Source: a virus
Taxonomy: Duplodnaviria; Heunggongvirae; Uroviricota; Caudoviricetes
DNA: 40,813 nt
Direction: 5' to 3' (one strand)
Virus record (IMG/VR): IMGVR_UViG_2563366797_000003
The notes beneath the pieces are model-generated. The model saw nothing but the letters and a program-made list of their open reading frames with translations. It ran no database searches and was not told where the DNA came from. The position numbers and the translations under genes were made by a program. Of the stretch, positions 1 through 40,813 are shown piece by piece. Positions within the stretch are counted from its first letter, which is position 1; each line of letters begins with the position of its first letter.

Positions 1-1194
1 ATGATCACCGACACAAAGCTCAGGAAGGCGCTCGGCAAGAAAAGAGATGATATCGAGATTATTTCTGATTCGCACGGGCTCAACGCCAGAATCAGCCAGG
101 CCGGAAAAATATCATTTTTCTATCGGTATCGCTGGGCCGGTAAAGCGGTAAAACTCAATGTTGGTGATTATCCTGCAATGAGTATCACCCAGGCAAGAGA
201 GCGTCGCCAACAATTCAGAAACTGGTTAACTGAGGGACTGGATCCGCGAGAGCAGGTGAAGCTGGATAAGCAGACCCGACAGGAAGCGATGTCCGTTGCC
301 GAAGCGTTCAATTACTGGATTGAAAGGCACTGTATCGCTAACGGGCTAGTTAAAGTCGATTACTATCGCCAGGTGTTTGAGAAACATATCGCCGAACCGA
401 TGAAGAATGTCAAAGTCGATAACACAGCGAAAATGCACTGGATCAACGTCTTCGATTCTATAGAAAGCAGGGTGATGGCTCATTACATGCTTTCGCTGTG
501 CAAACGGGCGTTTAGGTTCTGCGTTAACAGAAGTGTGATCGCCTCAAACCCACTCGAGGGATTACTGCCATCTGATGTCGGGCAAAAGCCTAAAAAGAGA
601 ACTCGCAGGATGGACGATGACGATCTGCGCAAAATCTATCAGTGGTTGAAAAGCCATATGTCGATAGAGTCCGTTTTCCTGGTGAAATTTATTATGCTTA
701 CCGGATGCCGTACGGCTGAGATTCGACTTAGTGAGAGATCATGGTTTCGATTGGATGATAATGAGTGGGTCGTGCCTGCGGGCAGTTATAAAACTCGGGT
801 ACATATTAGAAGGGGACTCTCAGACGCCGCCGTTAACCTGGTCAGAAATCACCTCAAGAAAATAAACACCAATCACCTGGTGACTTCACAACGTAAAATT
901 GATGGCGGGATCAAAGATTCGCCCGTTCATTCACCTGTGGCATCCAATTACGCCCGTTCTATTTGGAATGGAACAGGTATGGCAGAGTGGTCGCTTCATG
1001 ATATGAGGCGGACGATAGCCACAAATCTCTCTGAGTTAGGTTGCCCGCCGCACGTAATTGAAAAGCTGCTCGGGCATCAGATGGTGGGGGTTATGGCGCA
1101 TTACAACCTTCATGACTATATCGATGATCAGAAACACTGGCTCCGCGTTTGGCAGAGCCATCTTGAAGAGATCATCGGAGAGCCCTTCAGTTAA
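1..1194 (+). CDS. int: Tyrosine-type site-specific integrase (P4-like family)
   Basis: 397-aa ORF; N-terminal arm-binding-like region ([23 protein letters not shown]), C-terminal catalytic region with HxxR-like and conserved Tyr (MRRTIATNL...LLGHQ...MAHYN). Sits at the genome edge next to an excisionase-like gene. Confidence 0.9.
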
Positions 1195-37101: not shown

Positions 37102-38301
37102 ATGGCTTTGAACCTCGACACGCTGGGGCTATCGGCAACGGTAACCGCCCAGGGGATTAGTGCGCCTGATTACCAGACAATCCTTGATACACTGACCAGC
37201 TATTTCAGGCAGATTTACGGTAGTGATGCCTACCTCGAACCAGACAGCAAAGATGGGCAAATGGTCGCGCTGGTGGCTCTTGCGGTGCATGACGCTAACA
37301 ATACCGCTATCGAGATCTACAACTCTTTTTCACCGACGACAGCGCAGGCCGCAGCGCTTAGCAACAATGTGAAAATTAACGGGATCACGCGAAAAGTAGC
37401 GACAAACTCTACTGCTGACCTTCTGTTAACCGGTACGGCAGGCACGACTATCACGAATGGCTCCGCACGGGATAAAAACGGCATTATCTGGAATTTTCCA
37501 GCGAGTGTGGCGATCGGCGTTGATGGTACTGTGCTGGTGACGGCCACATGTGCGAATAGCGGTTCGGTTGCGGCGCTGGCCGGGACTATTACCACTATCA
37601 ACACCCCGACCCGAGGTTGGGTGTCGGTAACCAATCCAGTTGCGGCTACTGTCGGTTCACCAGCCGAAACCGACGCAGAGCTGCGCATTCGGCAGGGGCA
37701 AAGCGTCGCGCTACCATCGATCACACCGTTTGAAGGTGTCGACGGTGCTATCGCTAATGTTGCTGGCGTGACACGTCACAAACTATATGAGAACGACACT
37801 GGGGCAACCGACAGCAACGGGCTGCCGCCACACTCTATTTCCGCCATCGTCGATGGAGGGGATGTTACCGAGATAGCCCAAACAATCCGGGGGAATAAAG
37901 GGCAGGGAACCGCAACTTACGGTAAAACTTCTGTCACGGTGCCGGATACTTACGGTAATCCACACGTCATCAGTTTTTCGCGCTCTACCGATGTGCCAAT
38001 TTTCGTAGCCATTACCCTGAAAGTTTTTACCGGCTATACCTCTCAAATCGGCGAGCAGATTAAACAGGCTGTTGCCGATTATATAAATGGCCTAACAATT
38101 GGCGACGACGTTCTGCTGAGCCGTATTTATTCCCCGGCAAACCTCGGCGTTGTGAGCGGCGGGAATGCCCGCTATTACGATATTACCGACCTGCTGATCG
38201 GTAAGTCGTCTGGCAGCGTATCGGCATCAAACATTGATATTGCCTATGATGCTTCTGCGTCCTGTAGCACCGCGAATATCAGTATCACGGTGACCTCATG
38301 A
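37102..38301 (+). CDS. Baseplate J-like protein
   Basis: 399 aa; position and size typical of baseplate J (Mu gp47 / P2 gpJ) family members. Confidence 0.6.
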   Translation: MALNLDTLGLSATVTAQGISAPDYQTILDTLTSYFRQIYGSDAYLEPDSKDGQMVALVALAVHDANNTAIEIYNSFSPTTAQAAALSNNVKINGITRKVATNSTADLLLTGTAGTTITNGSARDKNGIIWNFPASVAIGVDGTVLVTATCANSGSVAALAGTITTINTPTRGWVSVTNPVAATVGSPAETDAELRIRQGQSVALPSITPFEGVDGAIANVAGVTRHKLYENDTGATDSNGLPPHSISAIVDGGDVTEIAQTIRGNKGQGTATYGKTSVTVPDTYGNPHVISFSRSTDVPIFVAITLKVFTGYTSQIGEQIKQAVADYINGLTIGDDVLLSRIYSPANLGVVSGGNARYYDITDLLIGKSSGSVSASNIDIAYDASASCSTANISITVTS

Positions 38302-38978
38302 GCAAATACACCGAACTGATCACTAACTACCACGCTACCAAGCCACTCTTTTTTGACCATATAGATCTGAGCACCCGCCCGCTGATTGATGTGTCCAGCA
38401 CTATGTCAGGGCTTATAACAGCCTTCGATATTGATACTGCTGTCGGTGTACAGCTCGACATCCTCGGTCTGTGGATCGGACGCAGTCGCATAGTCAGCCA
38501 GCCAATTAGCGGAGTTTATTTCAGCTGGGACACTGACGGGCTTGGATATGACCAGGGCATCTGGCAGGGGCCATATGATCCTGATTCTGGCTATACGACG
38601 CTAAGCGATGAGACGTACCGCATCATTCTGAAAGCGAAAATCGCTATCAACAACTGGGACGGCCGGAACGATTCTCTGCCTCCCATCCTTGACGCTGCGA
38701 CTGCAGGTTCAGGCCTGAAGATGCAGATCGTCGACAACCAGGACATGACGATATCGGTCTGGGTATTCCCCGAGACTGATATTTCTGATGTGTCACTCGA
38801 ACTGATAGCTGCTATCAAACAGGGCTATCTCACCGTTAAAGCTGCTGGCGTATGGGCCGGTGATGTTGAAACGCCTTCGGTAGAAGCACCATCCGAGGGC
38901 TCTAAATTCTTTGGGTTTGATATGGATAACGAATACATCGGTGGGTTCGATGTTGGGGCATGGGGGACAATACTCTAA
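38298..38978 (+). CDS. Putative baseplate/tail protein (gpI / Mu gp48-like)
   Basis: 226-aa ORF overlapping its neighbours at both ends, between the baseplate J and tail fibre genes. Confidence 0.5.
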   Translation: MSKYTELITNYHATKPLFFDHIDLSTRPLIDVSSTMSGLITAFDIDTAVGVQLDILGLWIGRSRIVSQPISGVYFSWDTDGLGYDQGIWQGPYDPDSGYTTLSDETYRIILKAKIAINNWDGRNDSLPPILDAATAGSGLKMQIVDNQDMTISVWVFPETDISDVSLELIAAIKQGYLTVKAAGVWAGDVETPSVEAPSEGSKFFGFDMDNEYIGGFDVGAWGTIL

Positions 38979-39772
38979 TGGCAATAAATAACTTTAAACC
39001 TTTCGCGACAGCAGCAAATGCTAACGTGACGGCCCAGGCTGACTGGGAAACACTTCCGGCTCTACTCTCTGGTTTCATGGCAGGAAAGGCATCCAGTGCG
39101 CAGGTAAACAAAGCTATTCGACAGGCCAGCTTTATTGCGGCAGCACTGGCACAGTACACGGCCAACAAAAGTGGGCTGGACGTTCTTGATGATGGTGACC
39201 TGAACGGGTTTATCTCCAAAATGGGGACCGCTTTTGGGAAAGATTTCCAGGCGCTTGACGCCACGCTGACGGCATTGGCTGGGCTCGCAACTGGTGCAAA
39301 TAAACTCCCGTATTTCACTGGAACTGATACAGCAGCTCAGACTGATTTAACTTCTGTTGGCCGTGACATTATTGGGAAAAATACTATTGCTGACATTCTC
39401 ACATACCTTGGTTTGGGAGAAGCGGCAACGAGGAACGTCGGAACGGATACCGGGCAAGTACCTGATATATCAGCATGGAAAAGCGGCCCGGGATGGAGAA
39501 AAGCGCCAGACGGGACACTGGAGCAGTGGGGAACAGCAATTGGGGACGCATCAGGCAGGAAGACTGTAATTTTTCCAGTCGCATTCTCATCACGGCCTGA
39601 TTCCGTAGTATTTTGCAATCTACAGAATGATGTTCCCGCATCCGTTCAGAATGTCGTTATTAACAACAACAATTTTGACTATGCCGGATTTGAGTGCCGA
39701 AACCTTGCCTACAGCGGCACGGCTATTGTTGGCAGTGCCAGCTCATTTATGTGGGTAGCCAGAGGGAAATAA
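38978..39772 (+). CDS. Tail fibre protein (short)
   Basis: ATG at 38978 overlaps the upstream stop (TAATG); 264 aa; followed directly by a tail-fibre assembly gene and an invertase. Confidence 0.6.
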   Translation: MAINNFKPFATAANANVTAQADWETLPALLSGFMAGKASSAQVNKAIRQASFIAAALAQYTANKSGLDVLDDGDLNGFISKMGTAFGKDFQALDATLTALAGLATGANKLPYFTGTDTAAQTDLTSVGRDIIGKNTIADILTYLGLGEAATRNVGTDTGQVPDISAWKSGPGWRKAPDGTLEQWGTAIGDASGRKTVIFPVAFSSRPDSVVFCNLQNDVPASVQNVVINNNNFDYAGFECRNLAYSGTAIVGSASSFMWVARGK

Positions 39773-39774
39773 GA

Positions 39775-40185
39775 ATGTACTTATACAGCAAATTAAAAAA
39801 TTTATTTTTCCTGAAAGATAATGAAGATTCATACAGGGCAGCAGGTGTGTTACCTGATGACTGCATTGATGTTGACGACGATTTGTTTAATGAGTTCAGT
39901 CAGCCTAAGGCTGGAAAGGTGCGCGTTGTTGGTGCAGATGGTTTGCCAAAATGGGGTGATGCGCCGTCGTTAACGGATGATGAAGTTTTCGCGGCTAACA
40001 TCGAAAAAAAAGCCGCGTTAATTGCTGAGGCGGGACAAGTTATCGCCCCACTGAGTGATGCACTAGCGGGTGGATATATTGATGATGCAGACAAGCCAAA
40101 ACTCACCGACTGGCAGAAATATCGCTACGCGCTGACAAAGGTCGATCCAGCTAATCCAGTATGGCCTGAAAAGCCAGCTGAGTAG
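39775..40185 (+). CDS. Tail fibre assembly protein (Tfa)
   Basis: ATG at 39775, 2 nt after the fibre stop; 136 aa; C-terminal region typical of Tfa proteins (LTDWQKYRYALTKVDPANPVWPEKP). Confidence 0.7.
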   Translation: MYLYSKLKNLFFLKDNEDSYRAAGVLPDDCIDVDDDLFNEFSQPKAGKVRVVGADGLPKWGDAPSLTDDEVFAANIEKKAALIAEAGQVIAPLSDALAGGYIDDADKPKLTDWQKYRYALTKVDPANPVWPEKPAE

Positions 40186-40217
40186 GAAAGGAACCTTTTT
40201 TATAACCATCAAAAATC
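40186..40217. other. Candidate invertase crossover site (hix/gix-like)
   Basis: Segment ggaaaggaaccttttttataaccatcaaaaatc contains AACC-TT-TTTTATAA resembling the GGTTTTTGATAA half-site of hix/gix, and ATCAAAAA matching the TTATCAAAAACC half-site core. Imperfect; no partner site confidently found. Confidence 0.25.
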
Positions 40218-40264
40218 TGGTGATGCTTCGCCGTTTCTCCTGTTTTCATAACAGGAGAAATCCC

Positions 40265-40813
40265 ATGATTTACGGTTATGCCCGAGTATCAACAAACCAC
40301 CAGGACACTGAATTGCAACTAACGGCGCTCAAGTCAGCGGGTTGTGAGAAAATTTTTGAAGAGCATGCCAGCGGGAGGAAATCGAATCGGCCGGTTCTAA
40401 AACGGCTGATCGCCACTATGCAGCCGGGGGATGAACTGGTGGTCTGGAAGCTGGACAGGATAGGCCGCAACGTTCTGCATGCGCTGTTGATGTTCCAGCA
40501 GTTACAGGAAAAGGGTATCAACTTCCGCAGTATTACCGATGGCGTGGATCTCAAAACAGCCAGCGGCCGCTATAACTTTCGTAACATCCTTTCCGCAGCA
40601 CAATATGAATCTGATCTTAATAGCGAACGTACCTTAGCAGGGCTGGCCGTAGCCAGGGCAAAAGGGCGAGTTGGTGGTCGCAGGCCTAAGTTCACGGATG
40701 AGCAATGGCGGGAAATGGGGGAGCGGATGGCAACCGGTGAATCACGACAAAGCGTATCAAAAACGTATGGAGTAGGGCTCTCAACTCTGTATAAAAAGTT
40801 TCCAGCTAGCTGA
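40265..40813 (+). CDS. Serine-recombinase DNA invertase (Hin/Gin/Cin/Pin family)
   Basis: ATG at 40265 with an AGGAG RBS; MIYGYARVSTNHQDTELQ...NRPVLKRLIATMQPGDELVVWKLDRIGRN...RTLAGLAVARAKGRVGGRRPKFTDEQW...GVGLSTLYKKFPAS closely parallels Hin (catalytic Ser in YARVST, C-terminal HTH). The track's 40220 start is an upstream extension. Confidence 0.85.
   Translation: MIYGYARVSTNHQDTELQLTALKSAGCEKIFEEHASGRKSNRPVLKRLIATMQPGDELVVWKLDRIGRNVLHALLMFQQLQEKGINFRSITDGVDLKTASGRYNFRNILSAAQYESDLNSERTLAGLAVARAKGRVGGRRPKFTDEQWREMGERMATGESRQSVSKTYGVGLSTLYKKFPAS

What the first reader, a model, noticed from the sequence alone, without database searches (positions are those of the whole stretch)
38978..40813. 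Hin-family invertase follows tail fibre and Tfa genes, but no alternative inverted fibre cassette is visible
In Mu (G segment), P1 (C segment) and the e14/Rac/Qin Pin systems the invertase switches between two fibre C-termini and two tfa genes arranged head to head. Here the fibre and tfa genes are both on the + strand and only about 80 bp separate tfa from the invertase. A hix/gix-like half-site match exists at 40186-40217, but I could not find a convincing partner site inside the fibre gene. Either the invertible segment lies beyond the window, the system has lost one cassette (a fixed-phase remnant), or the invertase acts on an unconventional target.
Basis: partly seen in the sequence, partly recalled or inferred. 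Interest (0 to 1): 0.5.

Follow-up and report, generated by a model that had tools for sequence, protein, structure and literature searches.

The report
One-cassette invertible tail-fibre switch (ON/OFF)
The prophage carries an intact Gin/Pin-type invertase next to a 786-bp segment that holds one fibre tip and its chaperone between two crossover sites, so flipping it should turn the fibre off rather than swap host range, and two E. coli isolates carry a near-identical segment in opposite orientations.

Summary
The gene layout is real: fibre (38978-39772), tfa (39775-40185) and an intact 182-aa invertase (40265-40813), all on the + strand, with no second cassette. A near-perfect 26-bp crossover site, TTCTCACATACC TT GGTTTGGGAGAA, lies at 39396-39421 inside the fibre gene, at the constant/variable junction. 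It is the only match in the window and none is expected by chance.

Its outer half and core equal the invertase-proximal site of two-cassette relatives. Its inner half is the tfa 3' end and includes the stop codon.

Nothing phage-borne lies beyond the window, because host yciI/tonB follow.

The same 786-bp segment (98-99% identical) sits in several other prophage backbones, with breakpoints at the two cores. In one P2-like prophage, two isolates have flanks 100% identical over 3.6 kb and 3.0 kb, with the segment inverted between them. A second inverted case exists in another backbone.

So this is most likely a one-cassette, still-invertible derivative of the Pin/Gin switch, now ON. OFF would give a truncated fibre. 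Inversion in this particular prophage is inferred, not shown. It is a new variant of a known kind.

The parts
38978..39772 (+). Tail-fibre gene (264 aa). The constant part Sc runs to about 39407 and the variable receptor-binding tip Sv runs from about 39410 to 39772.
   Evidence: ORF. Pfam Gp53-like_C on residues 175-263. Homology to E. coli relatives' fibres stops at about 39414-39446.
39396..39421 (+). Left crossover site (siteL), TTCTCACATACC TT GGTTTGGGAGAA, with core TT at 39408-39409.
   Evidence: 19 of 20 consensus positions match, against 14 of 20 for the next best site in the window. It is the only match at up to 3 mismatches, with 0 expected by chance. The same site sits at the Sc/Sv junction of two-cassette relatives.
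39408..40193 (.). Predicted invertible segment, 786 bp including both cores. It carries the fibre tip and tfa only, and is in the ON orientation in the window.
   Evidence: The segment is 98.4% identical to L134 3620-4419, where it is inverted relative to its backbone. The same segment is inverted between L130 and L143, whose flanks are identical. The OFF product was modelled.
39775..40185 (+). Tail-fibre assembly chaperone (tfa, 136 aa).
   Evidence: Pfam Caudo_TAP, E=6.5e-21. The identical protein is recorded on 34 contigs, and the places read span several prophage backbones.
40180..40205 (+). Right crossover site (siteR, hybrid), GAGTAGGAAAGG AA CCTTTTTTATAA, with core AA at 40192-40193. 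The inner half (40180-40191) is the tfa 3' end and includes the stop codon TAG at 40183-40185. The outer half (40194-40205) is the canonical invertase-proximal half.
   Evidence: Two-cassette relatives have TTCTCCCAAACC AA CCTTTTTTATAA at the same offset of -85 from the invertase ATG. The 99.8% homology to HK225 starts at 40192. The same inner half takes part in natural inversion.
40233..40261 (+). Hairpin with a 12-bp stem that covers the invertase Shine-Dalgarno sequence (AGGAGAAA).
   Evidence: RNA fold of 40206-40275 gives -23.1 kcal/mol, z = -4.2. The equivalent repeat is annotated IR3 upstream of pinL in phi80. Any regulatory role is inferred.
40265..40813 (+). Serine DNA invertase of the Gin/Hin/Pin family (182 aa, PinL type), apparently intact.
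   Evidence: Pfam Resolvase (E=3.6e-39) and HTH_7. Gapless alignment to Gin residues 1-181 (PDB 3UJ3, E=1.4e-56), with Ser9 and the DRxGR motif present. The protein is 100% identical to the invertase of many two-cassette loci.

Best explanation
This is a one-cassette derivative of the Gin/Pin-type tail-fibre inversion switch. The invertase (40265-40813) should pair the canonical site in the fibre gene (39396-39421, core TT) with a hybrid site just upstream of its own gene (40180-40205, core AA) and flip the 786-bp segment that carries the fibre tip and tfa. In the window the segment is ON: the fibre is intact at 264 aa and tfa is co-transcribed with it. After inversion the constant fibre part would be fused to 42 antisense-tfa codons, giving a 186-aa fibre without a receptor-binding domain, and the tip and tfa would point away from the late operon. 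The result is a fibre ON/OFF toggle, not a swap between two host ranges. What is shown: both sites are present, the invertase looks intact, and a near-identical segment with the same inner half-sites occurs in both orientations in nature, with exchange at the two core dinucleotides. What is inferred: that this prophage's own PinL-type invertase flips this copy, at what rate, and that the architecture arose when the second cassette was lost by recombination between the normal right site and a quasi-site at the tfa end. OFF looks like a dead end for the phage, and invertases next to such cassettes are often inactivated. I therefore read it as a tolerated, decaying switch rather than a designed one.
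For: siteL is unique in the window and not expected by chance. siteR's core and outer half are identical to the working right site of two-cassette relatives that carry the same invertase protein. One such two-cassette segment occurs in both orientations (L046 vs L050). The invertase has a full-length, gapless alignment to Gin with Ser9 present. L143 and L130 are the same P2-like prophage: their flanks are 100.000% identical over 3635 and 3027 bp, while the 789-bp segment is 99.87% identical but inverted, with boundaries at the two cores. That segment is 98-99% identical to window 39394-40193, including GAGTAGGAAAGG. L134 is a second inverted case in a different P2-like backbone whose flanks are only 65-79% identical. 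The two sites share no long inverted repeat, so mis-assembly is an unlikely cause (sequences). Host genes follow the invertase. There are at least 8 one-cassette loci with different tips, and all place the tfa stop in ..TAGG AA C...
Against: No inverted copy was found in the window's own backbone, where only two contigs carry its exact fibre. The inner half of siteR matches the consensus at only 4 of 10 positions. ON greatly outnumbers OFF: 23 to 1 among the contigs read for this tfa, and 8 to 0 among one-cassette loci collected through the invertase, so flipping is rare or selected against. The proven isomer pair sits next to a dead invertase (S9P) with a different outer half-site (CGTTTAAGAAAA), so it shows action in trans by an unknown Pin-type enzyme, not by this PinL-type enzyme. 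The proximal Fis site of the gin/pinE enhancer is not conserved in this invertase gene.
Confidence: 0.65

Rival explanations
1. Fixed-phase remnant. The second cassette and the inner half of the right site were lost, the hybrid site is no longer a substrate for this PinL-type invertase, the fibre is locked ON, and the invertase is a leftover.
For: The inner half of siteR matches the consensus at 4 of 10 positions. All 8 one-cassette loci collected through the invertase are ON. Invertases beside one-cassette segments are often broken: L011 has a frameshift, L135-137 have a frameshift, the P2-like lineage has S9P, and L112 has an internal stop. phi80 and HK225 carry the same invertase next to mere remnants of a site.
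Against: A near-identical segment with the same hybrid inner half does invert in nature. The window keeps a near-perfect siteL, complementary cores and an intact invertase whose protein is identical to that of two-cassette loci.
Confidence: 0.2
2. The invertase is kept mainly for work in trans. It would flip invertible segments of other prophages in the same cell, as PinQ and PinR of Qin and Rac flip the e14 P segment, and its neighbour cassette would be incidental.
For: PinQ, which sits next to a single stf-tfa pair, inverts the e14 P segment in trans and thereby blocks phage T2 (PMC12529663). EC958 Phi4 has a truncated invertase yet still inverts (PMC4134206). The L130/L143 isomers both carry a dead S9P invertase, so a trans-acting enzyme must exist. 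Invertase genes of one-cassette loci show dN/dS of 0.06-0.2.
Against: This does not exclude action in cis. It was not tested whether the source genome holds another invertible segment. The low dN/dS could also reflect repeated replacement by alleles from two-cassette loci.
Confidence: 0.1
3. Assembly or annotation artefact. The single cassette or the inverted copies would reflect mis-assembly of a normal two-cassette segment.
For: Invertible fibre regions are known to confuse assemblies (PMC4134206).
Against: The same one-cassette layout recurs in independent assemblies and in complete genomes. The two sites share only a few bases of inverted repeat, too little to misorient a contig.
Confidence: 0.03

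Closest known systems
e14 P segment with PinE (E. coli K-12)
   Same: A crossover site lies at the fibre constant/variable junction, and a second lies about 80 bp upstream of the invertase ATG (e14: TTCTCCCAAACC AA CGTTTATGAAAA). The tfa gene lies inside the segment and the invertase is co-directional and downstream.
   Different: e14 has two tips and two tfa genes tail to tail in a segment reported as 1797 bp (PMC12529663). Here there is one tip and one tfa in 786 bp, and the inner half of the right site is the tfa end rather than the start of an alternative tip.
Mu G segment with Gin, and P1 C segment with Cin
   Same: The invertase aligns to Gin residues 1-181 without gaps. The logic is the same: a constant fibre part is joined to an invertible tip.
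   Different: The switch is one-cassette ON/OFF rather than an A/B host-range switch. The proximal Fis site of the gin enhancer is not conserved. The helix-E region differs strongly from Gin.
phi80 pinL and the HK225 invertase
   Same: The invertases are 94.8-99.8% identical at the DNA level, with the same upstream hairpin (IR3) and the same yciI attachment module.
   Different: Those lambdoid phages keep only a right-site remnant next to a fibre pseudogene fragment, and no partner site was found in the 10-kb stretches scanned. The window has both sites around a live cassette.
Rac PinR and Qin PinQ (E. coli K-12)
   Same: A single stf-tfa pair lies next to a pin gene with no alternative cassette. 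PinQ is active and works in trans (PMC12529663).
   Different: There the pin gene is convergent with tfa. In the paper read, PinQ inverted the e14 segment rather than the DNA next to it. The proteins are more distant, with the Qin pinQ region about 35% identical by tblastn.
Cin quasi-sites
   Same: A crossover site with little sequence similarity apart from the core is still used at low frequency. This is my proposed origin of the tfa-embedded half-site.
   Different: This rests on my own knowledge and on the reference list of PMC4134206 (Iida & Hiestand-Nauer 1986 and 1987). I did not read those papers and did not test the origin.

Membership tests
Hin/Gin/Cin/Pin serine DNA invertases | N-terminal resolvase catalytic domain with the nucleophilic serine (Ser9/10) and the conserved Arg and Asp residues | tested here: met
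   Pfam Resolvase on residues 2-135, E=3.6e-39. The motifs YARVST and KLDRIGR align to Gin.
Hin/Gin/Cin/Pin serine DNA invertases | C-terminal helix-turn-helix DNA-binding domain in a protein of about 180-195 aa | tested here: met
   HTH_7 on residues 138-181. The protein is 182 aa and aligns without gaps to Gin 1-181.
Hin/Gin/Cin/Pin serine DNA invertases | Fis-bound recombinational enhancer in the 5' part of the invertase gene, with two Fis sites 48 bp apart | tested here: inconclusive
   A crude consensus scan recovers the pair at gene positions 23 and 71 in gin and pinE. Here position 23 is similar, but position 71 lacks the flanking G and C. Fis sites are degenerate, so this is not decisive.
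Gin/Pin-type invertible fibre segment | Two 26-bp crossover sites in inverted orientation with matching 2-bp cores, one at the fibre constant/variable junction and one just upstream of the invertase | tested here: met
   siteL at 39396-39421 matches 19 of 20 consensus positions and has core TT. siteR at 40180-40205 has core AA, an outer half identical to relatives' right site and an inner half matching 4 of 10.
Gin/Pin-type invertible fibre segment | Two alternative fibre tips, each with its own tfa, arranged head to head | tested here: not met
   Only one tip and one tfa lie between the sites, and there is no fibre or tfa ORF on the minus strand. About 1.85-2.0 kb separate the sites in two-cassette relatives, against 786 bp here.
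Gin/Pin-type invertible fibre segment | The segment is observed in both orientations | tested here: inconclusive
   This is met for a 98-99% identical segment in two P2-like prophages (L130 vs L143, and L134). It was not observed, and cannot be tested with these tools, in the window's own backbone.
Orphan invertase / fixed-phase remnant (phi80 pinL type) | Only one crossover-site remnant is left, with no partner at a live fibre gene | tested here: not met
   The window has a near-perfect partner site inside an intact fibre gene.

The most novel reading that the evidence does not exclude
One-cassette segments (tip + tfa, with the tfa stop codon built into the right crossover site) may be portable host-range cassettes. 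Hin-family invertases, often acting in trans, would both flip them ON/OFF and swap them between unrelated co-resident prophages by exchange at the core dinucleotides. The conserved ..TAGG AA C.. junction would then be maintained because it still works as a half-site. The evidence does not exclude this. The same 786-bp segment (98-99% identical) sits in P2-like, Mu-like and e14-like backbones as well as in the window's, with four different left outer half-sites and three different right outer half-sites. On the right, the flanks diverge two bases after the core, so the shared sequence there is only a few bases, too little for homologous recombination.
Probability: 0.3. Interest if true: 0.75.

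Novelty: new variant of a known kind. Interest (0 to 1): 0.55.

Why it matters
Invertase-driven fibre switches are textbook devices that alternate between two host ranges. This case indicates that a stripped-down version with a single cassette can still flip, giving a fibre-less OFF state, and that its right site has an inner half made of the chaperone gene's end. That is relevant to three things. First, annotation: an invertase next to one fibre gene should not be assumed inert, and apparently truncated fibre genes may be OFF-phase copies. Second, site recognition by Hin-family enzymes: one consensus-like half plus the core seems to be enough in vivo. Third, fibre tips appear to move between unrelated prophages as discrete units bounded by the crossover cores. 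It also adds a natural case of inversion beside a catalytically dead invertase, which points to action in trans.

Tried and rejected
1. Generic inverted-repeat search of 38900-40813. It gave only chance-level pairs, because the two sites are too dissimilar to appear as a repeat.
2. Search for the variable cassette in complete E. coli genomes and in GenBank phages. It was absent there apart from weak similarity to the tfa 3' end.
3. Search for the second cassette beyond the window. This is rejected, because host genes follow.
4. Other targets for the invertase in the window. No other site matches at up to 3 mismatches, and the next best sites score 14 of 20.
5. OFF-junction scans:
   - TCTCRMAWACCTTCCTAT in viral contigs gave 4 unrelated chance hits.
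   - ACCTTCCTTTCCTACTCAGCTGG gave 0 hits in viral and 0 in metagenome contigs. The ON junction is also absent from those collections, so these nulls say nothing.
   - An OFF-junction query found no spanning match in 5426 complete E. coli genomes.
6. Fis-enhancer scan. It was inconclusive.
8. I first read the locus as a dead remnant, because the break falls exactly at the core. I dropped that reading once the inverted copies turned up.
Full report
**What is at the coordinates**

The end of the window encodes these genes on the + strand:
- baseplate J (37102-38301)
- a DUF2612 wedge protein (38298-38978)
- a 264-aa tail fibre (38978-39772, Gp53-like_C domain)
- a 136-aa tail-fibre assembly protein (39775-40185, Caudo_TAP)
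- after 79 bp, a 182-aa serine recombinase (40265-40813, Resolvase + HTH_7)

The recombinase aligns without gaps to Gin residues 1-181 (PDB 3UJ3, E=1.4e-56). It keeps the catalytic Ser9 and the DRxGR motif, so it is neither truncated nor obviously inactive. No fibre or tfa ORF lies on the opposite strand.

A scan with the half-site consensus TTCTCNNAAACC gives one outstanding hit in the whole window: TTCTCACATACC TT GGTTTGGGAGAA at 39396-39421. It scores 19 of 20, and the next best site scores 14 of 20. With the full 26-bp consensus it is the only match at up to 3 mismatches, and no match occurred in 100 shuffles. It lies inside the fibre gene, where homology to the constant fibre part of E. 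coli relatives ends. This is the classical constant/variable junction.

**The site next to the invertase**

Two-cassette relatives carry TTCTCCCAAACC AA CCTTTTTTATAA 85 bp upstream of the invertase ATG. At the same offset the window has GAGTAGGAAAGG AA CCTTTTTTATAA (40180-40205). The core and the outer half are unchanged. The inner half is replaced by the last bases of tfa, including its stop codon TAG (40183-40185). The 99.8% homology to phage HK225 starts at 40192, which is the core. The cores of the two sites, TT and AA, are complementary, as an inversion requires.

**Nothing lies beyond the window**

The exact fibre protein is found in E. coli assembly GCA_000351865.1. There the invertase stop is followed by 118 bp and then by yciI, tonB and yciA. 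The window starts with the integrase gene. phi80 and HK225 have the order invertase, attP (in yciI), int. The invertase is therefore the last gene of the prophage.

**How common the layout is**

I collected about 100 loci through close relatives of the invertase.
- Most are conventional, with the left site about 1.9 kb upstream of the right one and a tfa on either strand.
- One such segment occurs in both orientations (L046 vs L050, 1869 bp).
- A minority have a single cassette: window, L004, L007, L010, L011, L068, L074 and L078. L110 and L111 were found separately.
- These loci span yciI-type, e14-like (dusA) and P2-like prophages, and both PinL-like and PinE-like invertases.
- In all of them the tfa stop sits in ..TAGG AA C.., so the chaperone gene ends two bases before the core.
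- In the less biased viral-contig sample, three one-cassette loci (L068, L074, L078) turned up among the roughly 80 loci fetched.
- The window differs from the others by five extra bases (GAAAG), which put AAA next to the core, as in the consensus half-site.

**The decisive evidence**

The window's exact Tfa protein is recorded on 34 contigs. The 24 contigs read show it in:
- P2-like prophages (L128-L130, L133)
- a prophage at yciI with a Mu-like baseplate (L132)
- e14-like prophages at dusA (L135-L137)
- the window's own prophage

The shared DNA is 98-99% identical in the contexts where it can be measured separately from the flanks. It ends at the two cores. The left outer halves are TTCTCACATACC, TTCTCGCATACC, CTCTCACAAACC and CTCTCGAAAACC. 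The right outer halves are CCTTTTTTATAA, CGTTTAAGAAAA and CCTTTCAAATAT.

In L134 the segment is inverted relative to its P2-like backbone. The left junction reads TTCTCGCATACC TT CCTTTCCTACTC, followed by antisense tfa. The right junction reads TTCTCCCAAACC AA CGTTTAAGAAAA, followed by the invertase. Its flanks are only 65-79% identical to the other P2-like loci.

The short ORF that exists only in the OFF state led to L143. L143 and L130 come from two different E. coli assemblies. Their flanks are 100.000% identical over 3635 bp and 3027 bp. The 789-bp segment between them is 99.87% identical but inverted, with the breakpoints at the two cores. The two sites share almost no inverted repeat, so an assembler could not have flipped the segment.

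This shows that a one-cassette segment with the tfa-embedded right site inverts in vivo.

**Who does the flipping**

In the P2-like lineage of L128-L130, L133 and L143, the adjacent invertase has Ser9 replaced by Pro, plus R102S, and both isomers carry these changes. The inversion must therefore have been made by another invertase in the cell. Action in trans is documented: PinQ of Qin inverts the e14 P segment (PMC12529663), and EC958 Phi4 inverts despite a truncated invertase (PMC4134206). The dead gene could still supply the enhancer in cis. That point is inference.

**Consequence for the window**

Inverting 39408-40193 in silico gives a 186-aa fibre: 144 constant residues followed by PFLLSWLFRPYWISWIDLCQRVAIFLPVGEFWLVCIINISTR. 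It also turns the right site into the canonical TTCTCCCAAACC AA CCTTTTTTATAA. The tip and tfa would then face away from the late operon. The switch is therefore ON/OFF.

I consider it likely (about 0.65) that this copy can flip. It has:
- a near-perfect left site
- the natural right outer half for its own invertase
- the same inner halves as the proven isomers
- an intact invertase whose protein is identical to that of two-cassette loci

This is not shown for this backbone or for this invertase type.

**Is the OFF state useful?**

Probably not for the phage.
- ON outnumbers OFF by 23 to 1 among the contigs read for this tfa.
- ON outnumbers OFF by 8 to 0 among one-cassette loci collected through the invertase.
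- Invertases beside one-cassette segments are often inactivated: L011 has a frameshift, L135-L137 have a frameshift, the P2-like lineage has S9P, and L112 has an internal stop.
- Against this, intact invertases of one-cassette loci differ with dN/dS of 0.06-0.2, and the ..TAGG AA C.. junction is kept across many tfa alleles.

These observations fit a decaying switch whose parts are repeatedly refreshed by exchange with two-cassette loci. They do not exclude a selected role.

**Origin**

The break at the core, with three different right flanks, cannot come from homologous recombination, because only a few bases are shared there. It points to site-specific exchange. L004 and L010 share a cassette (H82, the L010 locus, matched the L004 query at 92.6%), but their right flanks switch type at the core. 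I propose that the second cassette was lost by recombination between the normal right site and a quasi-site at the tfa end, of the kind reported for Cin. That reference is from memory and from the reference list seen. The proposal is untested.

**Comparison with known systems and verdict**

The locus works like the e14, Mu and P1 fibre switches and meets their defining features for the invertase and for the site pair. It fails the two-cassette criterion. It is not an orphan like phi80 pinL, because it has a partner site. Rac and Qin also have one stf-tfa pair beside a pin gene, but there the pin gene is convergent.

In the papers I could search I found no description of a one-cassette ON/OFF fibre inversion or of a crossover half-site overlapping a tfa stop codon. 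The search was limited.

I class the finding as a new variant of a known kind, of moderate interest.

Noticed in passing
L128-L130, L133, L143 (invertase at L130 4487-5053): The PinE-like invertase of this P2-like prophage lineage has the catalytic Ser9 replaced by Pro, plus R102S. Two isolates with identical flanks nevertheless differ by inversion of the adjacent segment, which implies an invertase acting in trans.
   Followed up: partly
window 40233-40261: A hairpin with a 12-bp stem covers the invertase Shine-Dalgarno sequence (the 70-nt stretch 40206-40275 folds at -23.1 kcal/mol, z = -4.2). It corresponds to the repeat annotated IR3 in phi80 and is conserved in relatives. It may give translational control of the invertase.
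   Followed up: partly
window 40265-40400: The distal Fis-like site of the gin/pinE enhancer (gene position 23) is recognisable. The proximal one (position 71) has lost its flanking G and C in PinL-type genes. The helix-E region, where as I recall Fis-independent Gin and Hin mutants map, is strongly diverged from Gin.
   Followed up: partly
window 40186-40190: The window-type cassette has five extra bases (GAAAG) between the tfa stop and the core compared with other one-cassette loci (..ATAGG AA..). They create AAA at the positions where the consensus half-site has AAA.
   Followed up: partly
window 1-1194 and 40186-40813; L001, L002: The integrase, yciI attachment site and invertase module is shared with the lambdoid siphoviruses phi80 and HK225 (invertase DNA 94.8-99.8% identical), whereas the tail module here is of the myovirus type. 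This is a clear mosaic junction.
   Followed up: partly
window 35127-35785: Two small genes interrupt the baseplate cluster. One is a 114-aa protein with a signal-peptide-like N-terminus (+ strand, 35127-35471). The other is a DUF4236 protein on the opposite strand (35495-35785). They look like a moron insertion.
   Followed up: no
L011 and L110 (both from E. coli 873.10, NZ_CP061754.1): Two different prophages in one genome, one next to torT and one P2-like, are both one-cassette loci. They share the left site plus about 370 bp of fibre tip at 96% identity and the same tfa end (CCAATATAGG AA). This is consistent with exchange between co-resident prophages.
   Followed up: partly
L112 3010-4047: In a P2-like prophage, an acyltransferase gene on the opposite strand sits between tfa and an invertase that has an internal stop.
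   Followed up: no
L007, L010, L011: RefSeq marks the fibre genes of these one-cassette loci as partial (missing C-terminus), although complete ORFs of 346, 302 and 391 aa are present. The annotation is probably misled by the foreign tip.
   Followed up: partly
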